Source: a bacterium (GTDB lineage Bacteria; 4484-113; JAFGCY01). Taken from it: a stretch of DNA of 64,000 nucleotides. The stretch is taken from the NCBI GenBank assembly GCA_020849855.1, contig JADZFO010000038.1:108010-172009 (forward strand), read 5' to 3'. Made by a program: the position numbers and the translations under genes. Below the pieces are notes generated by a model, which was given only the letters and a program-made list of their open reading frames with translations, made no database searches and was not told the DNA's origin. Positions 50,309 through 62,992 of this stretch are shown here, piece after piece. Position 1 is the first letter of the stretch. Each line of letters begins with the position of its first letter.

Positions 50309-50956
50309 TCAGACCGGTCGCAGGCGCAGACCCGGCTGCATCTCGCGCATCAGCAGGTACATATCCAGCGCGCAATAGCGCTGTAACGTTTCCGGTGTGC
50401 CCCGCAAGCTGTGGCACAGCCGCGGAAGATCCGGTTCATTCCCGCGCAGAAGGCTGATCATCGCCAGTGCGTTGTCCTTCTCCCAGACGAACTCGTGCTC
50501 ATCCGAGGCGGCGATCCGCTCGGTGCTGGCGATCAGCAGCCGCAGGTCGCCAAGGAAATAGGCGAGGCTGGCGGCGCGCACCGCGGCAATCATGCCATGA
50601 CGCAATTGAAAGTCGAAGTACTGCTTCAGGCAGCGCGGATCGTCCAGCCGTGCTGCAACCATAATGTAGTCAAGGCAGAAGGCGTCCCAGCCGACAAGGC
50701 TTGAGCCGCCTGAAACCTGAATGCGTCCGGCGAACCGGGCGAGGTTGTCAAGGGGTCGGCGGTCGAAGGTGCGGCTGCAGGTATAGGCGGCCACGTAGGC
50801 CGTCTGCAGCGGCCAGCGCTCATCCCCGAAATCGCTGTGGGCGGACAGTTCGCAGAACCTGTTCATCGCAGTGAGCGACGACAGGAACAGCCTTGATTCT
50901 ACAAACCTGCTGTAAAGCACTCTCCCCCACCTCGCTGTAACAGCCTTGCCAGCCAC
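50309..50956 (-). CDS. uncharacterized ~220-aa all-alpha-type protein, paralog 3 of a tandem triplet
   Basis: 215 aa; shares with 51104..51778 and 51829..52497 the blocks Y(V/I)(E/D)S..F(L/I)SS...M..F, ERWP(L/I)..AY.AAYTCSRTFD, Y.MVAARLDDP..L..YF, AAVR.ASLAY.LG. No known catalytic motif recognised. Confidence 0.45.
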   Translation of the reverse strand: MAGKAVTARWGRVLYSRFVESRLFLSSLTAMNRFCELSAHSDFGDERWPLQTAYVAAYTCSRTFDRRPLDNLARFAGRIQVSGGSSLVGWDAFCLDYIMVAARLDDPRCLKQYFDFQLRHGMIAAVRAASLAYFLGDLRLLIASTERIAASDEHEFVWEKDNALAMISLLRGNEPDLPRLCHSLRGTPETLQRYCALDMYLLMREMQPGLRLRPV

Positions 50957-51103
50957 CAGATACTAACGAACAAATCAGATATGCGCTGGAGTTTGGCCCC
51001 AAGTTTGCACGGAGCGCACCAGCGCTGATGCAGGCAATAAGAAAGAGTGCGGATAAATGCACTATGCCGGACAAGCAGGGAATTGACTGACGGTCAGCTT
51101 GCG

Positions 51104-51778
51104 TCAGGCAGCTTCCGTACGCAGACCTGGATGCATCAGTCGCAGCAGGAGATTCAGGTCGAGCGTGCAGTACTGCATATGTTCCGGCTGAGCATGTTTC
51201 AGCTGTCTGCACAGTGCCGGCAGGTCCGGCGATCTGCGCCGCAGCAGGCGGTACAGCGCGGTCGCGTTCTCGGCTTCCCAGCGGAAACTCGGCTGCGGGT
51301 CAGCCTTGATGCGTTCTATGCTCTCGGCTAGCAGCTCCGGCATTCCGAGATAGTGCGCCAGGCTCGCCGTGCGGACAGCAGTTATCGTTCCGCGGTAGTC
51401 AGGGTTGGCAAAGTAGGGGCGCAGGACCTGCGGATCATCCAGTCTTGCTGCAACCATCACGTAATCGGCGCAGAAAGACTCCCACCAGCTCAGCGAACCC
51501 TGCAGAAAGCTGCTCTCCCTGGCTAAGAGCAGCGCAATCTCTTCAAGCGCAGGCGCATCGAAAGTCCGGCTGCAGGTATAAGCTGCGAGGTAGGCGGTGC
51601 GAATCGGCCAGCGCTCGTTCTGCAGGCCCAGCCGGCAGGTGTCGCGCACGAAGCTGCGCATCCCGTTGCTGGATGACAAGAAGAGCCCCGACTCGACATA
51701 CTTGCTGCAGAGCATCGCCTTTAGAATCCGAAGCCGCCTTCGGGTCTCGAATTCTAACATGCCAGGTCGCATGTACAT
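51104..51778 (-). CDS. uncharacterized ~220-aa protein, paralog 2 of tandem triplet
   Basis: 224 aa; see paralog block description (CSKYVESGLFLSSSNGMRSF...NERWPIRTAYLAAYTCSRTFD...YVMVAARLDDPQVLRPYF). Confidence 0.45.
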   Translation of the reverse strand: MYMRPGMLEFETRRRLRILKAMLCSKYVESGLFLSSSNGMRSFVRDTCRLGLQNERWPIRTAYLAAYTCSRTFDAPALEEIALLLARESSFLQGSLSWWESFCADYVMVAARLDDPQVLRPYFANPDYRGTITAVRTASLAHYLGMPELLAESIERIKADPQPSFRWEAENATALYRLLRRRSPDLPALCRQLKHAQPEHMQYCTLDLNLLLRLMHPGLRTEAA

Positions 51779-51828
51779 GCAAGTGTTCGCCGCCTGTAAC
51801 AGCGAATTCGCTTAGCAGCCAGGAGTGC

Positions 51829-52497
51829 TTAGGCGCTGCCTGTTGTGCCGCCGGGGCAGCGGGCCAGACTGCGCTGGAGGATCTGCACATCTGTTGAAAC
51901 ATAGGGCAGGTAGCTGCAGCCCTCAAGGCGGCTGGCCGTCCGGCACAGGCTGACAAGGTCCGCCCGGCCGCACTTGAGCGCGGAGTACATCGCCTCCGCG
52001 AACTCCAGCTCCCATTCCTTGTCCGGCGGCGCGATGGGACGGCGGTTAATCTCCGCGCGCTGCGCGCGCACGCTGGCGAAGAGCAGCACCTCATCGCGGA
52101 GAAAATAGGCCAGCGAGGCTATGCGCGTCGCGCAGCGGAATGCGTCGTCGCCTTCAAGCTCAAGGTAGGGCAGCAGCACTGCGCTGTCGAGCTCCCGCGC
52201 GGCAACCAGAGCATAGTTGTAGCGAAACTCGTCTTCCCAGCTCTCGATGCGCGAGGCGTAATGGTGCGCAAGCTGCGCCATGCGGGGCAATGGCCGTTCA
52301 TCCCACATCCGTGTGCAGGTAAAAACAACCACAGCGATCACGCGCAGCGGGTTGCGCTCCTTGTCGAAGTCCGCGGTCAGAGACTCTTCCAGGAAGGCCT
52401 CCATGGACACCAGCGATGAAATGAAGGCACACGAATCGATGTAGCGGTCGAAGAGCGATCCTTCAATCTTCTTTACTTCTGTTGTTAGAGTATTCAC
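51829..52497 (-). CDS. uncharacterized ~220-aa protein, paralog 1 of tandem triplet (most divergent)
   Basis: 222 aa; FDRYIDSCAFISSLVSMEAF...KERNPLRVIAVVVFTCTRMWD...YALVAARELDSAVLLPYL. GTG start overlaps the stop of the small ORF (GTGA). Confidence 0.45.
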   Translation of the reverse strand: MNTLTTEVKKIEGSLFDRYIDSCAFISSLVSMEAFLEESLTADFDKERNPLRVIAVVVFTCTRMWDERPLPRMAQLAHHYASRIESWEDEFRYNYALVAARELDSAVLLPYLELEGDDAFRCATRIASLAYFLRDEVLLFASVRAQRAEINRRPIAPPDKEWELEFAEAMYSALKCGRADLVSLCRTASRLEGCSYLPYVSTDVQILQRSLARCPGGTTGSA

Positions 52498-54061: not shown

Positions 54062-57000
54062 TTAGCCCAGGTCCTCTTCGCTGACGTCGATCTCCGGGTT
54101 GTCGTGGATCCTCGTGCGGCCGTCGTCGGACAGGCGGGCGCGCGGCGGGACGAGCATCTTCAGCAGCTTGGTATCCAGCGCGCCGCGGCGCTTCACCGCC
54201 AGCATGCGGTCGCGGAAGGCCGTCCCATGCTGCGGGTTCAGCTCCAGGGCGTGGCTGCAGTAGAGGATTGCCTCGTCATAGTTGCGCACCGCCAGCAGCT
54301 CGCGGCCCAGCAGGGCATAGAGGTCGGCGTCGCGGCAGCCCTCGGCCACCGCCTTGCGCAGCAGGGGCAACACTTCGCGCTGGCGCTTGAGCTGGCGCAG
54401 GATGTCCACAATCTCGATGTAGCTCGCCGCCAGCTTGGAGTTCAGCTCCAGGGCGCGGTCAAAGCAGCTCTGGCTGTAACTGAACAGGCCCTTACGCTTG
54501 TAGGCCACGCCAAGCTGGTGGTGCAGGATGGCGAAGTTCGGGTTGATCTGCAGGGCCTGGTTGTACTGCTCGATGGCCTCGTCAATGCGGCTGTCGTTCA
54601 GGAAGGTGTCGCCCTGGGCCAGGAAGTTGCGGGCCAGCAGGCCCTTCTTGGAGTGGCTGACGCCCTCCTCAGCGAATACCGCCGTGTTACCGACACCCAG
54701 CAGCACGCAGGAGATGGTGCCCTCGAGGCGGCGGCGGATGGCGTCGCCCTTGATCAGCTCCATGGCCTGGGCCGGCTCGCTGGTACTGGTGATCAGCTCC
54801 TTGATCTCGGAGATCGACAGCGCGCTGGAAAGGTTGCGGCTGAGCAGCAGCAGCTGGTCGCCATCCTTCAGGCGGCGCTTCAGACGGTGCACGCGGGCCA
54901 GCTCGCCAAAGCCCAGACGGTCGTGGATCGTGTTTGACAAGGCTTTCTCACCGTCGCCGATGACGACCTCGTCGTTGATGGTCCACTTGTCGTCCGAATG
55001 GTCCAGCAGGTGTCCCTGGGCCAGGATGGTGAAATCAGCCTCGCCGCAGCTGTGCAGATAAAGCGTGTTCTCCTGCACCATGCCGACGATGGCGGACAGG
55101 CCATAGTGCCCGGTCTTGCCAAGGCCAAAGGCCTCGCGGTAGAGGCGCTGGTTCAGCAGGTCAAGCACCTGGTCCAGGAACTTCTCGGGGTCGGTCTTCT
55201 GCATCTTGGCCAGCTCAGGGCTGACCGCGCCGGCGCTGAAAAGCAGCTCACGCATGCTCTTGAGGGCGCTGGTGGCCGCGCGGCTGGAATCGCCCAGTTC
55301 ATTGCCGTGGCCGACCAGCAGGGCAATCGCGCCGCGGGCACGGTTGTTTACCGCAGGCAGGCGGATGGCCAGGGTTTCCTCACCCTTCTCGCGGGTGTTC
55401 TTGCCCACCATCGACAGCTCGGCGAAATCAAAGCGCAGGTTTGGCACCTGGACCTGCTGCTTCTTGTCGTAGCCCAGCAGGTGGCTGAGTTCCTCGCCCA
55501 GCTCGCCGGCCGCCGCATAGCGCCCGGTGGGGTTCTTCTCCAGCATCCGGATCAGCATGTCCTTGATCTCGGGATGCAGCAGCGAGGCCTCAACACGGGT
55601 GGCCGCGTTCAGGTGCAGGTGTTCGTCGCGGATCTCCTGCTCCACCTTGAAGCAGAAGGGCGGGTGGCCCACCATCATCTCGAAGAGCAGGATGCCCAGC
55701 TGGTAGATATCGCTGCGCTGGTCCTGGCTCTGCTGGCGGATGAACTCCGGGGTGTAATACTCGGCGCCGATGAAGTTCAGGTTGCCATTCTGCAGGAAGG
55801 CATCCGCCACCAGCGGGTCGGCGATCTTGACCGAGCGCAGGTCCGTGGTCAGGAAGATATTGCTCGGGCGCAGGGCGCCGTGATAAGGCAGGTGGTGGAA
55901 GTAGAGGCCCTCAAGGCCCTTGCAGATCTGGAAAACGATGCGGCCGGCATCAGGCATCGGCAGGGTGCCGCGCTTGATCAGCAGCTGCTCGAGGCTCTGC
56001 AGGCCGGACTCCATGGCGATATAGCCGTTCTCGAAGTGGATGCCGACGTCATAGACCTGCAGGACATTCTCGTGATGGATGTTCGGCAAGGCCTTGAAGC
56101 GGGTCTGGAACAGACCCTGCAGCTCGGGATGGCTGCGCAGGTCGACCAGCTTGACCACGCAGCGCTGCTGGCCGTCCTCGGAGCGGGTGTCGATCGCGGA
56201 ATAGATGCGGCTGACGCGGCCCGAGCCGATCTCGGAGACCAGCTTGAAGCGGCCGTTGATCAGGGTATCGAGGATGAAGGTCTGGAAGCGCAGGCCGGAC
56301 TGTTCTTCGCCGCAGAGCTTCTGGACATCATCCAGGGCCTGCTTGAAACCGCCGTAGCGCTGCTCCAGGACCGGAGAAAGCAATTTGTATAGCAGCTCCT
56401 GCACCGGCAGGGGCAGCTTGGTTTCGTCACTGAGCACCTGGCGCAGGCGGTCGGGACGCAGGCGCTCGGCCGGCGGGAAGATGGCGCTGGCCGGGGTGGC
56501 CGTGGCCAGCTCCAGCGCGATCAGGCCGAGGCCGTAAAGGTCGCACTGCTGCGCGGAGAAGAGGCCGCTGGGCGCGCCGTCGAAACCCTCGGGCAATGCG
56601 CCCGCCTCGCCGGCGGCGCCGTTATCCTGGCCCGCCTCAAAGCCGTGGCCGCTCTCCAGGGCCGGCAGTCCGGCCAGCAGCTCGCGTGGCGGCAGATAGG
56701 CCAGCAGGTTGGCGGCTTCAGAAGTCAGCGCCAGATCGTCATGGATCGTGACCGTCGGATAGCCAAAGAAGCCCAGCTTGACCTGGCCCTGTTCCAGGCT
56801 GATGCGGATGTTGTCCGGGTGAACACTCTGGTGCGAAAGCACTTCCTTGCTCTCGGCAAAGAGCAGCGCGCGCAGCACACCGCGCATCAGCACCAGCAGC
56901 TCAGCCGGCGGCAGGGCCTTGAGGTTCTCGAACTGGCTCAGGGGCCGGCCGAAATCGGGATAGACAAGGTAGGGACGCCCTTCCTTGCCGCCGAAGGCCA

Positions 57001-57352
57001 GCGGCCGCAGCACGTTCTCGTGCTCTTTCTGGGCCAGGATGATGTTGACGCGCTTGAGCTCCTCGAGCTGCTCGACGGAAATCAGCGGATCGTTGATCAG
57101 CAGACAGACCACTGGCTGCTGGTCCTCAAGGCTGAAACCTGAGTAGCGGTCGCCCAGAACGCCCTGCGATTGCAGGTTATTAATGTGAAATCTGTCTACC
57201 TGGAAGGGTATCTGCATGCCTCGCCCCAATCGTTCCTGATTATATCGGGCTGGCAGCGTCTGCCCTGCACTCTCCATGCCCCCATTGATTCCCCCGAACT
57301 CGATGGTGTCATGCGCACCGTTGACTGATGTCTCCGGCAGTCCTAGACCCAT
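54062..57352 (-). CDS. multidomain signalling protein: two degenerate Ser/Thr-kinase-like (pseudokinase) domains, PP2C/SpoIIE-like phosphatase domain, C-terminal TPR repeats
   Basis: 1096 aa. Kinase-like 2: IGSGRVSRIY (Gly loop), CVVKL (VAIK), HHENVL, YHGALRPSNIF in place of HRDLKPxN (catalytic Asp absent), YYTPEF (APE). Kinase-like 1 similarly degenerate (SHQSVHPDNI). LLVGHGNELGDSSRAATSAL and following region are PP2C-like. C-terminal TPRs (AILHHQLGVAYKRKGLFSYSQSCFDRALELN.., ADLYALLGRELLAVRNYDEAILYCSHALELNP). Confidence 0.65.
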   Translation of the reverse strand: MGLGLPETSVNGAHDTIEFGGINGGMESAGQTLPARYNQERLGRGMQIPFQVDRFHINNLQSQGVLGDRYSGFSLEDQQPVVCLLINDPLISVEQLEELKRVNIILAQKEHENVLRPLAFGGKEGRPYLVYPDFGRPLSQFENLKALPPAELLVLMRGVLRALLFAESKEVLSHQSVHPDNIRISLEQGQVKLGFFGYPTVTIHDDLALTSEAANLLAYLPPRELLAGLPALESGHGFEAGQDNGAAGEAGALPEGFDGAPSGLFSAQQCDLYGLGLIALELATATPASAIFPPAERLRPDRLRQVLSDETKLPLPVQELLYKLLSPVLEQRYGGFKQALDDVQKLCGEEQSGLRFQTFILDTLINGRFKLVSEIGSGRVSRIYSAIDTRSEDGQQRCVVKLVDLRSHPELQGLFQTRFKALPNIHHENVLQVYDVGIHFENGYIAMESGLQSLEQLLIKRGTLPMPDAGRIVFQICKGLEGLYFHHLPYHGALRPSNIFLTTDLRSVKIADPLVADAFLQNGNLNFIGAEYYTPEFIRQQSQDQRSDIYQLGILLFEMMVGHPPFCFKVEQEIRDEHLHLNAATRVEASLLHPEIKDMLIRMLEKNPTGRYAAAGELGEELSHLLGYDKKQQVQVPNLRFDFAELSMVGKNTREKGEETLAIRLPAVNNRARGAIALLVGHGNELGDSSRAATSALKSMRELLFSAGAVSPELAKMQKTDPEKFLDQVLDLLNQRLYREAFGLGKTGHYGLSAIVGMVQENTLYLHSCGEADFTILAQGHLLDHSDDKWTINDEVVIGDGEKALSNTIHDRLGFGELARVHRLKRRLKDGDQLLLLSRNLSSALSISEIKELITSTSEPAQAMELIKGDAIRRRLEGTISCVLLGVGNTAVFAEEGVSHSKKGLLARNFLAQGDTFLNDSRIDEAIEQYNQALQINPNFAILHHQLGVAYKRKGLFSYSQSCFDRALELNSKLAASYIEIVDILRQLKRQREVLPLLRKAVAEGCRDADLYALLGRELLAVRNYDEAILYCSHALELNPQHGTAFRDRMLAVKRRGALDTKLLKMLVPPRARLSDDGRTRIHDNPEIDVSEEDLG

Positions 57353-57451
57353 TTCGTCACCACCCCATGGTTTGTCACTTATATAGAGTATGTCTTACCC
57401 GCTTAGGTTGCGTTAGAAGAAGGACAAAGTTTGGATAAGTCAGGCAACAAG

Positions 57452-57476
57452 CAATCAAAAGCCGGGTCGAATGCAG
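57452..57476 (-). terminator. putative rho-independent terminator after the lipoate-ligase-like gene
   Basis: GAATGCAGGCC-T-GGCCTGCATTC hairpin followed (minus strand) by CTTTTG. Confidence 0.4.
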
Positions 57477-57489
57477 GCCTGGCCTGCAT

Positions 57490-58179
57490 TCAGGCCGCTC
57501 CGGCCGCAGCTGTAAATTCTGCTTCCAGGGCTGCCATCACGTCCTCCGCGCTGCAGTCGAGCCCCTGCTCCTCCAGGCTGGTGACGAAATCGCTGTGCCG
57601 TACCCCGGGGCGGTTGGGCGGAATAGGAAGGTAGCGCTCAATGGCGGCAATGTCGCAGCGCAGCATCAGGGTGGCGTGGTGCAGCACAAGGCCGCTGGAC
57701 AGGCGCATGGCAGAGCCGCTGACCTTGCGGCCGCTCAGTGCTATGTCAGACAGGCCGCTGGCGCTGAAGCCCGGGCCGAGGCGGGCAAAGGCGCGCAGGG
57801 CCAGGCCGCGGAAGTACTCGATGAAATGCGTGGTCGCCGGCCCGCCGGGCTGTCCGGTCTGCGCCGCCTCCACGCTGGCCCGCGAGAGTATGAAGCTAAA
57901 GTTCAGGTTATGCAGGTCGTGATAGACCGTGCCGCCGCCGGAGAAGCGCCGCAGCACCGGGATGCCGTCCGCCGCGCAGGCCTGCTGGTCGACCCACTCC
58001 TCATCCCTGTTGCTGCGGCCCAGGACCACGCAGGGCGAATTGACATAGAACAGCAGGGTCGGCCGGACTGCTGCGCTGTTTTGCGGCCGCAGGCTGTCAT
58101 ATAGCGCTTCTTCATGGGCGAGGTTGGCGGCGGGATCGTGCCCCGCCCGGCGGAGTACCTGGATCTGCACACTTCGCAT
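57490..58179 (-). CDS. lipoate-protein ligase / octanoyltransferase family (BPL_LplA_LipB catalytic domain) protein
   Basis: 229 aa; RRFSGGGTVYHDLHNLNFSFI (RRxSGGGAVxHD LplA/LipB signature) and a downstream conserved Lys region (SGRKVSGSA). Confidence 0.65.
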   Translation of the reverse strand: MRSVQIQVLRRAGHDPAANLAHEEALYDSLRPQNSAAVRPTLLFYVNSPCVVLGRSNRDEEWVDQQACAADGIPVLRRFSGGGTVYHDLHNLNFSFILSRASVEAAQTGQPGGPATTHFIEYFRGLALRAFARLGPGFSASGLSDIALSGRKVSGSAMRLSSGLVLHHATLMLRCDIAAIERYLPIPPNRPGVRHSDFVTSLEEQGLDCSAEDVMAALEAEFTAAAGAA

Positions 58180-58302
58180 TCTAGGCTCTGCCTTCGCTCG
58201 TCAGATCCTGGCCCGGACGCTCCATCAAAAGCTGCATAAAGGTGAAACTATGAACGCTGGCCGCTGCTCTTAGCCCGGTTTGCCCAAGCCATGGAGGTTG
58301 AA

Positions 58303-60210
58303 ATGCAAACGGCAAGAAGCAATTGGAAGCGCGTCCCCGGCACATTGTGTGTGCTGCTGATCCTCTCCGCACTGGGCTGCGGCGGCGGCCATGAGGGCGC
58401 CTTCGGCAACACCCTGGAGAACAGCACCGCCCCGGCAAGCCTGCCGGGCAGCACGCTTAGTCCCGCGCCGCCGGCTTTGGCTGCGCCCGCTGCCCGGGTC
58501 AGTTCCGGCATCTTCGAGCCGGGCGAGCTGTACCAGAGCAGCGCCTCCGGCGCAAGCTGGAGCGGCAGCACTGTGAGCCTTGACGCCGGCGGACTGGACC
58601 TGGCCTACAGCGTGGTGGGCCTCAATGCAGACGCCGGACTGCTGGAGCAGGTCAGCCTGCAGGGCAGCGGCAGCGCGGTCTGGCTGGGCGTCAGCAACTA
58701 TGCCAGCTCTGCCTGGGACTGGGTCGCCGGCCCGCTGGACGCTGAAACTGAAACGACCCTGCATGTACTGGACAGCAGCAGCCCGGACTGCTATTCGCCG
58801 GACGGCAGCATCTATCTGGCGCTGGTGACGACCGCGCAGGCCAGCCTGAGGCTGGAATGCAGCTTCAGCGACGCTCAGCTCAGCGTGGCGCTGAGCGGGC
58901 CGGACATCGGCAATGAGTGCCTGCCCCTGCTGGGCGTCAACGCCGGCCCCTACCCTTCTGGCGAGCCAGGCAACCCGGACCTGATTGAGCAGTACCACGC
59001 CGTCGGGGTGAACTATGTCCGCACCCACGACTTCTATGGCCCGCTGGACCTGGCACAGATGTATCCCGACCGCGATGCGAACCCGACACTGGAGTCCAGC
59101 TTCGACTTCACAGAGAGCGATCTGCGCTGGCAGGCGATCCTGGACAGCGGCGCGCGGCCTTATCTGCGCCTGGGCGACAGCTTTAACAACCCGACACCTC
59201 CGGAGAACCCGATGCAGCGGGCGCGGATGGCTGAGGCCTGCGTGCAGATCATCAAGCACTACATGGAGGGGCAGTGGGGCGGCTTCAACACACCCATCGA
59301 CTACGTTGAGATCTGGAACGAGCCGGACGGCCAGTTCTGGCCCGGCCACAGCCAGGCTGAGTTCTTCCAGTTCTTCGCCGCCGTAGAGAACGCGATCCAC
59401 GCCCAGTGGCCGGTGCTCAAGGTTGGCGGTCCGGGCTTCACCCCGGCCGGCTATCTGACCCCTTCAGGCCAGGCTTATGTCATTGACTTCCTGGACTATA
59501 TGTCGGTCTATGCCACGCGCCTCGACTTCATCTCCTGGCACATGTACTCCAACAACCCGCAGGATTTCGCTGAGGCCGCAGCCTGGTACCGCGTGCAGCT
59601 TGACGACAACGGCTTCGCCGCCGCCGAGAACCACATCACGGAGTGGAACACCTCCATCAGCAATGACGGAACGCAGACGGATGAAGAGATCGAGCTGCGC
59701 AGCGGGCCGACGGGCGCGGCCCTGCTGAGCGCGAGCTGGATCGAGCTGCAGCAGAGCGATGTGGCGGTGTCCTGCTTCTATCGCGGGCCGGACCCGAACA
59801 TTGAAGTCCCCAGCTTCTATGGGATGTGGTACGCCGATGGAACGCCGAAGAAGATCGGCGAGGCCTTTGCCCTCTGGCGCGAGTTCTGCCACAGCGGCAG
59901 CTTCCAGAGCCTTGAGCTGAGCGGAGAGGGCGCGGAGCAGCTCTATGCCCTCGTCGGCCGCGACAGCGAAAGTGACTATCTGCTGCTGCTGGCGAACACC
60001 TCAGACAACGCGGTGACCTACAGCCTGGACTTCCAGGACATCATCAGCGGCGAGCTCAGCCCGGTGCAGGAACTGTACCGCTGCACCCTTCGCGAGGTCA
60101 GCGCCGATGACGACGGCCGCGCGATACATGACCTGCCGCTGAGCACCGTCTCCATCCCGGCACACGCTGTGCAGCTGCTGAAGGTGGACTGGTACGACAG
60201 CGACGACTAA
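58303..60210 (+). CDS. clan GH-A glycoside hydrolase lipoprotein (GH39/GH5-like) with shared N-terminal module
   Basis: Start at ATG 58303 (SD GGAGG 5 nt upstream; MQTARSNWKRVPGTLCVLLILSALGCGGG lipobox). ORF track 58291. N-module motif VWLGVSNYASSAWDWVAGP. Catalytic core with acid/base EIWNEPD (NEP) and nucleophile ITEWN, separated by ~110 aa as in (beta/alpha)8 GH-A enzymes. Confidence 0.65.
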   Translation: MQTARSNWKRVPGTLCVLLILSALGCGGGHEGAFGNTLENSTAPASLPGSTLSPAPPALAAPAARVSSGIFEPGELYQSSASGASWSGSTVSLDAGGLDLAYSVVGLNADAGLLEQVSLQGSGSAVWLGVSNYASSAWDWVAGPLDAETETTLHVLDSSSPDCYSPDGSIYLALVTTAQASLRLECSFSDAQLSVALSGPDIGNECLPLLGVNAGPYPSGEPGNPDLIEQYHAVGVNYVRTHDFYGPLDLAQMYPDRDANPTLESSFDFTESDLRWQAILDSGARPYLRLGDSFNNPTPPENPMQRARMAEACVQIIKHYMEGQWGGFNTPIDYVEIWNEPDGQFWPGHSQAEFFQFFAAVENAIHAQWPVLKVGGPGFTPAGYLTPSGQAYVIDFLDYMSVYATRLDFISWHMYSNNPQDFAEAAAWYRVQLDDNGFAAAENHITEWNTSISNDGTQTDEEIELRSGPTGAALLSASWIELQQSDVAVSCFYRGPDPNIEVPSFYGMWYADGTPKKIGEAFALWREFCHSGSFQSLELSGEGAEQLYALVGRDSESDYLLLLANTSDNAVTYSLDFQDIISGELSPVQELYRCTLREVSADDDGRAIHDLPLSTVSIPAHAVQLLKVDWYDSDD

Positions 60211-60307
60211 GGCGTGAAGCTGCGCAGCAGCAGGCTTCGCCAGCGATGGCACCAGCCCAGGCGGCCCGTGTAATGCGGGCCGCCGCTGCGCTGTATCATC
60301 CCCTGCT

Positions 60308-61213
60308 GTGATCTGGATCTACATTGTCGCCGGGCTCCTGATCGCGCTGCTCGGGGCGCGGCTGCTTGGCCGTCTGCGCTGGCGCAGCGCCTCGGCCCGG
60401 CTGGTGGAAAACCTGCGCAGCCACAAGCTGGCAGACGGCCCCGCGCCCCTGTCCGCTGCTGCACTTGAGGGCCTGCCGGCACCGGTAGCGCGCTATCTGA
60501 AGCTGGCACTGGGCGATGCGCTCTCGGCCGGCTCGACACTGCCCGGCTGGGTCAGCCTGCAGCAGCGCGGCGAGATGCGTCTTGGCGAGGGGCCGCAGGC
60601 CTGGAAGCCCTTCACGGCGACGCAGAACATCTGCGCCCGGCGGCCAGGCTTCGTCTGGGAGGCGGTATTCAACATGGGCCCCGCGATGAGCGTGCTGGTG
60701 CGGGACAGCTACTGCGCCGGCGAGGGGGCGATGCAGGCCTCCATGCTGGGCCTGCTTGGCATCGTCAACCAGCATGGCACAGCCCAGATCGGCGCCGCAT
60801 CGCTCCAGCGCTGGCTGGCCGAGGCGCCCTGGCTGCCGACGGCCCTGCTGCCCGAGAGCATCGAGGCCCGGGCCCTGCATGCCGCAGGCGCGGGAGCAGA
60901 AGGCGGCGGCGCATCGCTGCGCTGGGAGGGCATCGACGAGCGGCGGGCGCTCGCGCTGCTGCGCGACGGCGCGCTGGAAGTCAGCGTGGAATTCCGCTTC
61001 AACGCCGCCGGCGAAGTGGAGAGCATCTACTGCCCGGCGCGCTTCAGGGATGTGAAGGGCACGCCGGTGGCCACACCCTGGGAAGGCCGTTTCAGCGAGT
61101 ACCGCGCCTTCGATGGCCTGCGCATCCCGACGCGCGCCGAGGTCGGCTGGCACATCGACGGCGAGTACCAGCCCTACTGGCGCGGGGAGATTGAGAGCGC
61201 GAGTGTCAGTTGA
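60308..61213 (+). CDS. hypothetical protein with N-terminal TM helix
   Basis: 301-aa GTG-initiated ORF (IWIYIVAGLLIALLGARLLG). TATCAT 8 nt upstream. No motif recognised. Confidence 0.4.
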   Translation: MIWIYIVAGLLIALLGARLLGRLRWRSASARLVENLRSHKLADGPAPLSAAALEGLPAPVARYLKLALGDALSAGSTLPGWVSLQQRGEMRLGEGPQAWKPFTATQNICARRPGFVWEAVFNMGPAMSVLVRDSYCAGEGAMQASMLGLLGIVNQHGTAQIGAASLQRWLAEAPWLPTALLPESIEARALHAAGAGAEGGGASLRWEGIDERRALALLRDGALEVSVEFRFNAAGEVESIYCPARFRDVKGTPVATPWEGRFSEYRAFDGLRIPTRAEVGWHIDGEYQPYWRGEIESASVS

Positions 61214-61828: not shown

Positions 61829-62992
61829 CTAGACGCCGATGCTGGCGCCTTCGAGGGTCGGGCCGCGGTCGGAGCCGCCGCGCCCGCCGGGGCGGCTGCC
61901 CTTGCCCGGGCCGCCCTGCTCGCCGGCCACTGCCGAGGAGATCAGGCGCTGCAGGTTGCCGACGTTGCCGGCGTGGGCCATCGCCACCTCGAGGCTGATC
62001 AGGCGGTCCAGATAGCGGTCCCTCAGGCACTGGTCCATCGTCATCATACCCAGCTTGGAGTGGGTCATCATGACCGAGTGGATCTGGAACTCCTTCTTTT
62101 CGCGGATGAGGTTGCGGATCGCCGGGATGTTGAGCATGACCTCAAAGGTCGCCACGCGGCCGCCGCCTTCCGCCAGCGGCAGGAGCTGCTGGGACATGAT
62201 GCACTGCAGGGAGTTGGCCAGCTGGGCGCGGATCTGGTCCTGCTGCTCTGAGGGGAACACGTCGACGATACGGTCGATGGTCAGGGGCGCGTTGTTGGTG
62301 TGCAGGGTGGCGAAGACCAGGTGGCCGGTTTCCGCCGCGGTGATCGCGGTGGAGATGGTTTCCAGGTCGCGCATCTCGCCCACCAGGATCACGTCCGGGT
62401 CCTGACGCAGCACGCGCTTCAGCGCGCCGGCGAAGGACAGGGTGTCGGAGCCGATCTCGCGCTGGTTGACGTTGCAGCGCTTGTGCTGGTGCACGTACTC
62501 GATCGGGTCCTCCATCGTGACGATGTGGATGTCCTTGGTTTCGTTGATCACGTTGAGCATCGCGGCCAGCGATGTCGACTTACCCGAACCGGTCGGGCCG
62601 GTCACGAGACACAGGCCGCGGGGCAGCATGATCACTTCCTTCATGATGGGCGGAAGGATCAGCTCCTCCATGGTCGGGATCTTCTCGGAGATCGCTCGCA
62701 TGACCATGTACACGCTTTCGCGCTGGAAGGCCATGTTGCAGCGGAAGCGGCCGATACCCTTCTGGCTGTAGCCGAAGTCCAGCTCGCGCTCCATTTCCAG
62801 CTTCTTACGCTGGTCTTCACGGATCATCGAGAAGGCCAGGGCGCGCACGTCGTCCGGCGTCAGCGGCTTGTAGTCCAGACGGACCAGCTTGCCGTGGACG
62901 CGCAGCGTGGGGGGCACGCCAGCCGTCAGGTGCAGATCGGAAGCGCCATGCTCCACCAGCTGCACGAGGAGGTCGAGAATCGTATAGTCCAT
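61829..62992 (-). CDS. pilT: twitching-motility ATPase PilT (type IV pilus retraction) with Gly/Arg-rich C-terminal extension
   Basis: 387 aa; Walker A GPTGSGKST, Asp box/Walker B DVILVGEMRDLETI, His box LVFATLHTNNA; PilT-type N-terminus MDYTILDLLVQLVEHGASDLHLTAG. Extra C-terminal ~40 aa GEQGGPGKGSRPGGRGGSDRGP. Confidence 0.9.
   Translation of the reverse strand: MDYTILDLLVQLVEHGASDLHLTAGVPPTLRVHGKLVRLDYKPLTPDDVRALAFSMIREDQRKKLEMERELDFGYSQKGIGRFRCNMAFQRESVYMVMRAISEKIPTMEELILPPIMKEVIMLPRGLCLVTGPTGSGKSTSLAAMLNVINETKDIHIVTMEDPIEYVHQHKRCNVNQREIGSDTLSFAGALKRVLRQDPDVILVGEMRDLETISTAITAAETGHLVFATLHTNNAPLTIDRIVDVFPSEQQDQIRAQLANSLQCIMSQQLLPLAEGGGRVATFEVMLNIPAIRNLIREKKEFQIHSVMMTHSKLGMMTMDQCLRDRYLDRLISLEVAMAHAGNVGNLQRLISSAVAGEQGGPGKGSRPGGRGGSDRGPTLEGASIGV

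What the first reader, a model, noticed from the sequence alone, without database searches (positions are those of the whole stretch)
54062..57352. 1096-aa signalling protein with two catalytically degenerate Ser/Thr-kinase-like domains, a PP2C-like domain and TPRs
Both kinase-like domains lack the HRD catalytic Asp (YHGALRPSN, SHQSVHPDN) and have degenerate DFG, so they are predicted pseudokinases that still may bind ATP or partners. Fusion to a PP2C-type phosphatase and a TPR platform suggests a scaffold/partner-switching regulator. It sits next to the candidate novel operon and may regulate it.
Basis: seen in the sequence. Interest (0 to 1): 0.5.

Follow-up and report, generated by a model that had tools for sequence, protein, structure and literature searches.

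The report
Triple dead-enzyme signalling scaffold protein
This is a real, strongly conserved gene from an uncultured Planctomycetes-like lineage (some related genomes are labelled UBP7) whose product strings together two kinase-like domains, a phosphatase-like domain and a TPR platform, and all three "enzyme" domains have lost residues needed for catalysis, so it most likely works as a non-catalytic signalling scaffold.

Summary
The ORF is real. It lies on the minus strand at 54062-57352; the maximal ORF is 1096 aa, and the start is probably M46.

- **KD1 (46-348):** it lacks the beta3 Lys, the HRD Asp and the DFG Asp in all 34 orthologs.
- **KD2 (362-628):** it lacks the HRD Asp (H-G-[A/G/V], 34/34) and the alphaC Glu. 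It keeps the beta3 Lys, the catalytic-loop Asn and the DFG Asp (34/34), so nucleotide/metal binding is plausible.
- **PP2C-like domain (640-893):** It is a confident PPM fold (pLDDT 88.8; Foldseek E 6e-12 to PppA/Stp1/PstP), but the equivalents of PPM1A D60, D239 and D282 are V/I, variable and an invariant Gly.
- **TPR domain:** about 900-1067.

All domains are under strong purifying selection (dN/dS 0.005-0.045). The family is tiny: about 6 clusters at 50% identity among 1.84 billion proteins, and at least 12 species, in MAGs labelled Planctomycetales/Planctomycetia, 'UBP7' or just 'bacterium'. Gene neighbourhood is not conserved, so a link to the adjacent operon is unsupported, and there are no partner-switching components.

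Best reading: a cytoplasmic pseudokinase/pseudophosphatase scaffold, possibly nucleotide-gated. It is a new variant of a known kind, of moderate interest.

The parts
54062..57352 (-). Maximal ORF, 1096 codons plus stop (stop codon at 54062-54064)
   Evidence: GC3 0.86; 100% identical NCBI protein P0001 and 34 orthologs
57218..57352 (-). Residues 1-45: doubtful N-terminal extension or 5' leader. The likely start is ATG of M46 at 57215-57217; NCBI starts at TTG of L42.
   Evidence: Nearly all orthologs begin at the M46 equivalent. dN/dS is 0.38 versus 0.056 for the gene, on only about 10 substitutions. pLDDT <50 for residues 1-31, with a predicted helix at 33-43. Sequence read.
56309..57217 (-). 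KD1, residues 46-348: kinase-fold domain lacking all three catalytic-triad residues. It has a disordered, variable insert at about 205-270.
   Evidence: PDB phmmer to StkP/ULK3/MST4. The KD1 profile hits canonical STKs at E 1e-13 to 1e-18 in a 50-sequence set. Column counts: L84, S176, F195. AF2 pLDDT about 90 outside the insert. dN/dS of the core is 0.005.
56810..56836 (-). KD1 catalytic-loop remnant S173-N181 (SHQSVHPDN): HRD -> H-[Q/G]-x
55469..56269 (-). KD2, residues 362-628: Hanks-type kinase domain. K401, N498 and D512 are retained; the HRD Asp and alphaC Glu are lost.
   Evidence: Pfam Pkinase E 5e-35. PDB StkP/PknB E 1e-18 to 1e-24. Foldseek of the full-length model gives PknB and Stk1 as top hits. 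Columns. dN/dS 0.039.
55859..55885 (-). KD2 catalytic-loop remnant Y490-N498 (YHGALRPSN): HRD -> H-G-[A/G/V] in 34/34
54674..55435 (-). PPM/PP2C-fold pseudophosphatase domain, residues 640-893. The D60/D239/D282 (PPM1A numbering) equivalents are lost. R654, E658 and E659 are kept, and there is an invariant RRRLEG motif at 873-878.
   Evidence: Profile versus PDB: S. aureus Stp1 at E 3e-9. AF2 pLDDT 88.8, pTM 0.87. Foldseek PDB E 6e-12, prob 1.0, to PppA/Stp1/PstP/tPphA. HMM alignment to canonical PP2Cs. Columns. dN/dS 0.045.
54152..54655 (-). TPR domain, residues 900-1067 (ten predicted helices)
   Evidence: Pfam TPR_1/2/8/11 at 910-1045. PDB consensus-TPR hits. AF2 helices 900-1067. dN/dS 0.018.
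57353..57489 (-). 137-bp intergenic region between the lipB stop and the maximal ORF start, presumed to hold the gene's own promoter. No sigma-70 consensus was found.

Best explanation
The gene encodes a soluble cytoplasmic four-module protein: pseudokinase 1, pseudokinase 2, PPM-fold pseudophosphatase and TPR. It acts non-catalytically, as a signalling scaffold or allosteric adaptor.

Shown:
- All three enzyme-derived domains keep their folds.
- All three are under strong purifying selection.
- All three lack residues that the respective enzyme families need for catalysis, and these losses predate the diversification of the family.

Inferred:
- KD1, with no Lys, no HRD Asp and no DFG Asp, is a purely structural or docking module.
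- KD2 keeps the beta3 Lys, the catalytic-loop Asn and the DFG Asp but lacks the catalytic base and the alphaC Glu. It probably still binds nucleotide and Mg and serves as a conformational switch, as in JAK2 JH2, HER3 or STRAD-type pseudokinases.
- The former PPM catalytic cleft cannot hold the binuclear metal centre but keeps the phosphate-contacting Arg (R654). It has gained invariant basic residues (RRR 873-875). It probably binds, without hydrolysing, a phosphoprotein or a kinase partner, as the PPM pseudophosphatase TAB1 does with TAK1/p38.
- The TPR array recruits further partners.

The gene looks monocistronic, and its partners are encoded elsewhere.
For: - **Kinase homology and motif mapping:**
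- **Column counts in 34 orthologs, KD1:** Lys -> L/I/F..., HRD-D -> S/F/M..., DFG-D -> F/L...
- **Column counts in 34 orthologs, KD2:** K401, N498 and D512 are 34/34. HRD is H-G-[A23 G7 V4]. The alphaC Glu position is R29/K3/Y2.
- **PPM fold:**
- **PPM active-site mapping against canonical PP2Cs and counts:** D60eq = V/I/R/H..., D239eq is variable (R7 P7 D6...), D282eq = G 34/34. R33eq, E37eq and D38eq are kept as R/E/E.
- **Criteria for PPM activity:** PPM catalysis requires a binuclear Mn centre held by aspartates, and PPM proteins lacking it (TAB1, PHLPP2) are inactive (PMC12002173).
- **Purifying selection per domain:** dN/dS 0.005-0.045 against a 96%-identical ortholog with dS about 0.5.
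- **Localisation:** no TM segment, maximum Kyte-Doolittle 19-residue mean 1.47.
- **Neighbourhood:** no conserved neighbours across the three clades.
- **Activation loop:** no conserved Ser/Thr in the KD2 activation loop.
Against: - Everything is computational. No nucleotide binding, kinase, phosphatase or interaction assay exists.
- Kinases lacking single canonical residues can retain weak or unconventional activity (established knowledge: WNK, CASK, HER3, JAK2 JH2, SelO). KD2's intact Lys/Asn/Asp would be compatible with that.
- The full-length AF2 model has pTM 0.37, so no inter-domain arrangement supports a specific scaffold geometry.
- I had no access to model coordinates. The location of the RRR motif at the former active site is inferred from motif order and secondary structure only.
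- No partner has been identified.
Confidence: 0.55

Rival explanations
1. KD2 is a weakly or unconventionally active Ser/Thr kinase, and the rest of the protein (KD1, dead PPM, TPR) regulates or targets it. Either a residual, base-independent phosphotransfer occurs, or another residue substitutes for the HRD Asp.
For: K401, N498 and D512 are invariant in 34/34. K at the HRDLK position is 32/34. The APE Glu is invariant. The Gly-rich loop is partly kept (G378 27/34). KD2 is the domain closest to active PknB/StkP. Established knowledge: HRD-Asp mutants and natural HRD-less domains (HER3, JAK2 JH2) retain low activity.
Against: There is no Asp at the HRD position in any of 34 orthologs spanning 38-100% identity, and G492 is invariant there. 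The alphaC Glu is replaced by R/K/Y. No conserved acidic residue near the catalytic loop was evident in the alignment. No conserved phospho-acceptor is in the activation loop.
Confidence: 0.2
2. KD2 uses its retained nucleotide-Mg site for a different transferase chemistry, for example AMPylation with flipped ATP as in SelO, or another nucleotidyl or glutamyl transfer as in SidJ-type pseudokinases.
For: The pattern 'Lys + Asn + DFG-Asp kept, HRD-Asp lost' is the pattern seen in repurposed pseudokinases (established knowledge of SelO). There is a family-specific invariant activation-segment motif, GNLN-x-x-G/S-AEY.
Against: KD2 is a close sequence relative of ordinary Hanks kinases (E 5e-35 to Pkinase), not of SelO or SidJ. 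No SelO-like features were tested or seen. There is no genomic link to a candidate substrate.
Confidence: 0.05
3. One reading: a partner-switching regulator that controls the adjacent operon of unknown genes.
For: Physical proximity to three tandem paralogous genes of unknown function at 50309-52497 in the window and in the 96%-identical relative L005.
Against: A convergent O-methyltransferase gene lies between them. The paralogs were not found in the roughly 10-kb flanks held for the other 11 orthologous loci, which instead show MFP-MacB upstream and an unrelated 279-aa gene downstream, or a GGDEF neighbour. No STAS, anti-sigma or GHKL components were found.
Confidence: 0.05
4. It is an anti-phage defence kinase related to PD-T4-6, Mad6 or PglW-type kinases.
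For: PADLOC and NCBIfam defence-kinase models hit KD2 (PD-T4-6 E 9e-46; mad6 E 2e-45; MADS6 112 bits).
Against: The hits cover only the generic kinase domain and are far below the curated cut-off (112 versus 460 bits). The gene is single-copy per locus set. Within the main clade it sits among ordinary-looking genes in a conserved order. It is under strong purifying selection. No defence-gene neighbours were found.
Confidence: 0.03

Closest known systems
Hanks-type bacterial Ser/Thr kinases (PknB / StkP / Stk1), including TPR-bearing ones such as PknG and the Myxo1, GN-NS1 and Strep1/2 families
   Same: KD2, and more distantly KD1, are homologous in sequence and fold. A C-terminal TPR after a kinase domain is a recurrent bacterial architecture (bioRxiv 10.1101/2025.01.12.632604).
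   Different: Neither domain has the HRD Asp or the alphaC Glu. KD1 also lacks the beta3 Lys and the DFG Asp. There is a tandem arrangement plus an inserted PPM-fold domain. There is no TM segment and no PASTA or sensor domain.
Described bacterial pseudokinase families (ActPs1-3, GLW, CP1, DYD, DLHK; O'Boyle et al. 2025, PMC12599244, and the bSTK atlas preprint)
   Same: These are conserved bacterial Hanks-derived domains with family-wide loss of catalytic residues. KD1's loss of all three triad residues resembles the ActPs1/ActPs2/GLW pattern.
   Different: [quoted passage not shown] KD2 keeps the Lys and the DFG-Asp and loses only the HRD-Asp and alphaC-Glu. None of the seven is reported with a PP2C domain or in tandem (zero mentions of PP2C, tandem or Planctomycetes). 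Those families are actinobacterial, proteobacterial, cyanobacterial or firmicute. This one is in uncultured MAGs labelled Planctomycetales or UBP7.
PPM-family pseudophosphatases TAB1 and PHLPP1/2
   Same: A PPM fold is retained while the binuclear metal site is lost, and surface or partner binding is conserved. PHLPP combines the dead PPM with a repeat scaffold (LRR), and its pre-metazoan ancestors also carried a kinase domain (PMC12002173). TAB1 binds and regulates kinases (established knowledge).
   Different: Those are eukaryotic and there is no detectable specific relationship: the best structural matches here are bacterial Stp1, PppA, PstP and tPphA. TAB1 and PHLPP2 still bind one metal at M2. 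Here the bridging Asp (D60 equivalent) is gone, so even that is doubtful.
Tandem kinase / pseudokinase proteins (JAK JH2-JH1; plant tandem kinase proteins; obscurin PK1-PK2; bacterial tandem active kinases such as P0036 and P0046 found here)
   Same: Two kinase-fold domains sit in one chain, with at least one acting as a regulatory pseudokinase. KD2's HRD -> HG[A/G/V] resembles, from memory and not checked here, the HRD-Asp loss in JAK2 JH2 (an ATP-binding pseudokinase).
   Different: Here both domains are degenerate, so there is no active kinase in cis to regulate. P0036 and P0046 have intact HRD and DFG in both domains.

Membership tests
Catalytically competent Hanks-type protein kinase (PF00069) | Bilobal protein-kinase fold / significant Pkinase profile match | tested here: met
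   KD2: Pkinase E 5e-35, PDB StkP E 3e-24, Foldseek PknB/Stk1 E 1e-13 to 4e-14. KD1: PDB E 3e-4 as a single sequence; its profile hits canonical STKs at 1e-13 to 1e-18.
Catalytically competent Hanks-type protein kinase (PF00069) | beta3 (VAIK) lysine | tested here: inconclusive
   Mixed result. KD2: K401 in 34/34 (met). KD1: L84, family L12 I8 F6 Y3... (not met).
Catalytically competent Hanks-type protein kinase (PF00069) | HRD catalytic aspartate | tested here: not met
   KD1: S176 (S19 F4 M4 A2 L2 H2 T1). KD2: A493 (A23 G7 V4), preceded by invariant G492. No Asp in any of 34 sequences.
Catalytically competent Hanks-type protein kinase (PF00069) | DFG metal-binding aspartate | tested here: inconclusive
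   Mixed result. KD2: D512 in 34/34 (met; the motif is D-[A/T/V/P]-[L/V/I]). KD1: F195 (F21 L9...) (not met).
Catalytically competent Hanks-type protein kinase (PF00069) | alphaC glutamate pairing with the beta3 Lys | tested here: not met
   The HMMER alignment to StkP puts R418 (R29 K3 Y2) at the Glu position in KD2 and V102 in KD1. Shifting by one gives F419. There is no conserved Glu in the helix. This is alignment-based; coordinates were not inspected.
Active PPM/PP2C phosphatase | PPM alpha-beta sandwich fold | tested here: met
   AF2 pLDDT 88.8 and pTM 0.87. Foldseek prob 1.0, E 6e-12 to 1e-9, to PppA, Stp1, PstP, tPphA and PPM1K. Profile versus PDB: Stp1 at E 3e-9. Pfam's own PP2C models do not reach E<=1.
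Active PPM/PP2C phosphatase | Aspartates holding the binuclear Mn/Mg centre (PPM1A D60 in DGxGG, D239 in SDG, D282 in DN) | tested here: not met
   HMM alignment to canonical PP2Cs. D60eq = V680 (V21 I6 R2 H2 M1 S1 A1). D239eq = position 839 (R7 P7 D6 S3 H3 A3...). D282eq = G878 (34/34).
Active PPM/PP2C phosphatase | Motif 1 Arg and acidic pair (PPM1A R33, E37, D38) | tested here: met
   R654 (R31 K3), E658 (34/34), E659 (E33 D1). They are retained but insufficient for catalysis without the Asp ligands.
TPR repeat domain | Significant matches to TPR profiles and a helical-hairpin array | tested here: met
   TPR_1 E 1e-15, TPR_2, TPR_8 and TPR_11. Consensus-TPR PDB hits. Ten helices at 900-1067.
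Partner-switching module (RsbU/RsbV/RsbW type) | STAS anti-anti-sigma and GHKL anti-sigma kinase partners, and an active PP2C | tested here: not met
   No STAS or HATPase_c domain is in the protein or in the flanking ORFs that were scanned, roughly 42-64 kb of the window. The PP2C is predicted inactive.
Described bacterial pseudokinase families (ActPs1-3, GLW, CP1, DYD, DLHK) | Family-specific constraint patterns. VAIK-Lys substitution occurs in all seven, in all members of five and in 34-60% of CP1 and DYD members. | not testable with these tools
   Their profiles are not available here. By the published criteria, KD2 (Lys retained) does not fit the five families that always lack the Lys. KD1 fits the 'all three lost' pattern only generically. 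Architecture and taxonomy differ.
Defence kinases (PD-T4-6, Mad6/MADS6, PglW) | Score above the curated family cut-off and a defence-system gene context | tested here: not met
   MADS6 112 bits versus cut-off 460. PglW 27.6 versus 990. PADLOC hits are confined to KD2. No defence neighbours.

The most novel reading that the evidence does not exclude
The protein is a fossilised kinase-phosphatase cycle turned into a phospho-dependent, nucleotide-gated switch. KD2 still binds ATP/Mg, or even performs a non-canonical transfer such as AMPylation. The former PPM cleft, now lined with invariant Arg/Lys instead of metal-binding Asp, acts as a non-hydrolysing phospho-Ser/Thr 'reader'. If so, it would be an undescribed kind of bacterial phospho-reader, restricted so far as found to a small group of uncultured Planctomycetes-like/UBP7-labelled bacteria.
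Probability: 0.15. Interest if true: 0.65.

Novelty: new variant of a known kind. Interest (0 to 1): 0.4.

Why it matters
Bacterial pseudokinases are only now being catalogued, and bacterial PPM pseudophosphatases are, as far as I could find, essentially uncharacterised. In this protein three enzyme-derived domains have all lost catalytic residues, yet each is kept under strong purifying selection across a deep uncultured lineage. It is a clean natural example of signalling enzymes repurposed as scaffolds.

KD2's pattern (Lys, Asn and DFG-Asp kept; HRD-Asp lost) differs from most of the seven bacterial pseudokinase families described so far; five always lack the Lys and two lack it in only part of their members. 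That makes it a good test case for nucleotide-gated, non-catalytic signalling in bacteria.

Practically, the public annotation 'protein kinase' (one JGI record even says 'phosphatase PrpC') is likely to mislead function prediction for these MAGs.

Tried and rejected
1. A single-sequence PDB search with residues 625-909 found nothing, and Pfam PP2C models do not hit. A family profile and AF2 plus Foldseek were needed.
2. I looked for a conserved operon partner. Four ortholog contexts and a tblastn synteny matrix over 13 loci show three unrelated neighbourhoods. Only lipB recurs, loosely, within 0-7 kb. The downstream 279-aa gene of the main clade has no Pfam match and no tblastn hit anywhere in the 64-kb window.
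3. Defence-system membership: only generic kinase hits.
4. I looked for kinase-PP2C fusions among the nearest PP2C relatives. None were found; they are zinc-ribbon-PP2C or plain PP2C proteins.
5. The full-length AF2 model, run to get domain packing, gave pTM 0.37, so no reliable arrangement. Foldseek of that model returned only kinase hits.
6. The promoter scan of the upstream region found no sigma-70 consensus.
7. Literature searches found no description of this architecture. 'UBP7' is not in the NCBI taxonomy dump.


Full report
**1. Is it there?**

An uninterrupted ORF runs from 57352 down to 54062 on the minus strand, 1096 codons plus stop. Its codon-position GC (0.68/0.38/0.86) is that of a genuine gene in this roughly 65% GC window, whereas overlapping ORFs on the other strand are not gene-like. 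An identical protein is deposited at NCBI as 'protein kinase [bacterium]' (P0001, 1055 aa, starting at L42). About 34 full-length orthologs at 38-68% identity were recovered from metagenomes and MAGs.

Nearly all orthologs begin at the equivalent of M46 (MQIPFQV...); a few have short, unrelated N-terminal extensions. Residues 1-45 show dN/dS 0.38 against a 96%-identical relative, versus 0.056 for the whole gene, though this rests on only about 10 substitutions. The model gives pLDDT <50 for residues 1-31, with a predicted helix at 33-43. The mature protein is therefore probably about 1051 aa, and '1096 aa' is the maximal ORF. No hydrophobic segment reaches TM level, so the protein is predicted cytoplasmic.

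**2. Domain anatomy**

pLDDT troughs in the full-length AF2 model (mean 80.3) delimit four folded modules:
- KD1, residues 46-348, with a disordered, poorly conserved insert at about 229-262.
- KD2, residues 362-628.
- A third domain, residues 640-893.
- A helical repeat domain, residues 900-1067.

pTM is only 0.37, so the relative arrangement of the modules is not predicted. Pfam sees Pkinase in two stretches (best 370-614, E 5e-35) and several TPR models at 910-1045.

**3. The two kinase-like domains**

YHGALRPSN lies on StkP HRDLKPQN and KIADPL on KVTDFG. SHQSVHPDN lies on HRDLKPQN and LGFFG on TDFG. A KD1 family profile matches canonical Hanks kinases at E 1e-13 to 1e-18 within a 50-sequence set, with the same register.

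Column counts over 34 orthologs:

| Position | KD1 | KD2 |
|---|---|---|
| beta3 Lys | L84 (L12 I8 F6 Y3...) | K401, 34/34 |
| HRD | H-[Q/G]-[S19 F4 M4...] | H/Y-G(34/34)-[A23 G7 V4] |
| Lys of HRDLK | R17 H10 T3... (H178) | K 32/34 |
| Catalytic-loop Asn | N181, 22/34 | N498, 34/34 |
| DFG Asp | F195 (F21 L9...) | D512, 34/34 |
| alphaC Glu position | V102 | R29 K3 Y2 |
| APE Glu | not counted | 34/34 |

In KD2 the Gly-rich loop is A-x-G-R-x-S. No Ser/Thr is conserved in the KD2 activation loop, which instead carries a family-specific GNLN-x-x-G/S-AEY motif.

KD1 is therefore a fully degenerate kinase fold. KD2 has lost the catalytic base and the Lys-Glu latch but keeps every side chain that contacts ATP phosphates and Mg. 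These states hold in the most divergent members as well (P0034/35; P0086-88 read directly). The losses therefore predate the family's radiation.

**4. The PP2C-like domain is also dead**

This region is among the most conserved parts of the protein. Even so, a single-sequence PDB search finds nothing, and Pfam's PP2C models miss it.

Evidence that it is a PPM fold:
- A 15-sequence family profile (A2) hits S. aureus Stp1 at E 3e-9, then S. agalactiae Stp1, tPphA, PppA and PstP.
- AF2 on that alignment gives pLDDT 88.8 and pTM 0.87.
- Foldseek against the PDB returns only PPM phosphatases: PppA 6jkv, Stp1 2pk0, PstP, tPphA and PPM1K, with prob 1.0 and E down to 6e-12.

The fold assignment is secure. 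An HMM alignment to canonical PP2Cs recovered in the big search gives the following mapping; the PPM1A residue numbers (R33, E37, D38, D60, D239, D282) are from memory rather than from a tool result:
- 'GK-RREHNED' aligns with 'GKNTREKGEE'. R33, E37 and D38 (PPM1A numbering) are kept as R654, E658 and E659.
- 'ADGVGG' aligns with 'LVGHGN'. D60 becomes V680 (V21 I6 R2 H2...).
- 'CSDGL' aligns with 'LSRNL'. D239 becomes a variable position (R7 P7 D6...).
- 'GGKDNIS' aligns with 'RLEGTIS'. D282 becomes G878 (34/34).

PPM catalysis depends on a binuclear Mn/Mg centre held by these aspartates, and PPM proteins that lack them (TAB1, PHLPP2) are inactive (PMC12002173). I therefore call this a pseudophosphatase. 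The former active-site motifs remain the conserved ones, but they are more basic (invariant R873-R874-R875, K651, R664, R673). From this I infer, without coordinates, a conserved binding cleft for an anionic or phosphorylated ligand.

**5. Selection, distribution, context**

Against the 96%-identical ortholog L005 (dS about 0.5), dN/dS is 0.005 for the KD1 core, 0.039 for KD2, 0.045 for the PPM-like domain and 0.018 for the TPR domain. It is 0.25 for the KD1 insert. None of the 'dead' domains is decaying.

A profile search of 1.84 billion representatives with the PPM-like domain finds only about six 50%-identity clusters above 289 bits, plus fragments. There is then a gap down to generic PP2Cs at 77 bits or less.

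A scan of 185,579 species genomes finds full-length members in 12. All are MAGs: six are labelled Planctomycetales or Planctomycetia, and six only 'bacterium', and three isolates carry 'UBP7' in their names. The scan depends on two peptide patterns, so 12 is a lower bound. No further full-length copy from the same assemblies appeared among the 80 loci kept.

Neighbourhoods fall into three unrelated types:
- **Window and L005:** lipB, then the gene, then a convergent O-methyltransferase.
- **Main clade:** MFP-MacB-MacB, then the gene, then a 279-aa unknown gene.
- **Deep clade:** a divergent GAF-GGDEF gene.

Only lipB recurs loosely, within 0-7 kb. The convergent methyltransferase separates them from it. 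There is thus no comparative support for a regulatory link. No STAS, GHKL or anti-sigma component was found that would make this a partner-switching module.

**6. How it most likely works**

Shown:
- Three enzyme folds are retained under selection.
- Catalytic residues are lost family-wide.
- The nucleotide/Mg ligands are retained in KD2 only.
- The protein is predicted cytoplasmic and carries a TPR platform.

Inferred: this is a non-catalytic scaffold or adaptor. KD2 acts as a nucleotide-dependent conformational switch. KD1 and the TPR array act as docking surfaces. The PPM-like cleft binds, without hydrolysing, a phosphoprotein or kinase partner. I put this at about 0.55.

The main rival, at 0.2, is that KD2 retains weak or unconventional kinase activity. 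A repurposed chemistry such as SelO-like AMPylation cannot be excluded (0.05). Defence-kinase membership is rejected: the hits are confined to the generic kinase domain and fall far below cut-offs, and the gene shows none of the usual hallmarks of defence-island genes (no defence neighbours, strong purifying selection, and a conserved gene order within the main clade).

**7. Comparison with known families**

KD2's nearest relatives are PknB, StkP and Stk1. Kinase-plus-TPR is a recurrent bacterial architecture: PknG, Myxo1, GN-NS1 and Strep1/2 (bSTK atlas preprint). The seven described bacterial pseudokinase families all show VAIK-Lys substitution, in all members of five and in 34-60% of CP1 and DYD members. 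None is reported with a PP2C domain, in tandem, or in Planctomycetes. KD2's pattern (Lys and DFG-Asp kept, HRD-Asp lost) is therefore different from most of them.

Tandem kinase architectures exist in bacteria with both domains intact (P0036 and P0046). They also exist in eukaryotes with one pseudokinase (JAK, plant tandem kinase proteins, obscurin). Here both domains are degenerate.

PPM pseudophosphatases are known in eukaryotes. TAB1 is one. PHLPP is another; it also pairs the dead PPM with a repeat scaffold, and its ancestors carried a kinase domain. I found no described bacterial counterpart in the searched literature.

**8. Verdict**

However, the phosphatase is dead too, KD2 differs from KD1, and there is no evidence for partner switching or for control of the neighbouring genes.

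This is a new variant of known kinds: a lineage-restricted tandem-pseudokinase / pseudophosphatase / TPR architecture. It is of moderate interest, and all functional statements still need biochemical testing.

Noticed in passing
window 50309-52497 (minus strand: 51829-52497, 51104-51778, 50309-50956): Three tandem paralogous genes (222, 224 and 215 aa; 30-50% pairwise identity) with no Pfam match. They are conserved in order in the 96%-related genome L005 but were not found in the flanks of the other orthologous loci.
   Followed up: partly
window 57218-57352 (residues 1-45 of the maximal ORF): The N-terminal extension is absent from nearly all orthologs, mostly low-confidence in the model (pLDDT <50 for residues 1-31, predicted helix at 33-43), and evolving at dN/dS 0.38 (on about 10 substitutions). 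NCBI starts the protein at TTG L42, and orthologs start at M46. The true start is unresolved.
   Followed up: partly
window about 57471-57492: A 10-bp perfect inverted repeat (aatgcaggcc / ggcctgcatt) overlaps the lipB stop codon, with a short T-run about 8 nt further on. It looks like a weak terminator separating lipB from the target gene, but the consensus terminator scan did not call it.
   Followed up: no
window 56542-56739 (residues about 205-270, inside KD1): A Gly/Ala/Glu-rich, disordered insert sits in the KD1 activation-segment region. It is barely alignable among orthologs and has dN/dS 0.25, in contrast to 0.005 for the KD1 core.
   Followed up: partly
loci L001/L011, L004, L006-L010, L013: In the main ortholog clade the gene is preceded, on the same strand, by a periplasmic adaptor (MFP) and two to three MacB/FtsX-type permease genes. 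It is followed within about 20-100 bp (up to about 270 bp in L004) by a conserved 279-aa gene with no Pfam match. That gene could be a co-transcribed partner in that clade, and it has no tblastn hit anywhere in the 64-kb window.
   Followed up: partly
proteins P0036 (863 aa) and P0046 (1588 aa): The best non-family hits are bacterial proteins with two intact tandem Hanks kinase domains. P0046 also carries nSTAND1 NTPase and FGE-sulfatase domains. They are possible models for the active ancestor of the tandem arrangement.
   Followed up: partly
window 58291-61213 and 61829-62992: Other neighbours are a 639-aa protein with a weak GH39-like hit, a DUF6920/DUF6544 protein (60308-61213, E 1e-57 to 1e-60), and a PilT/T2SSE-type ATPase (61829-62992). 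None is linked to the target gene in other genomes.
   Followed up: no
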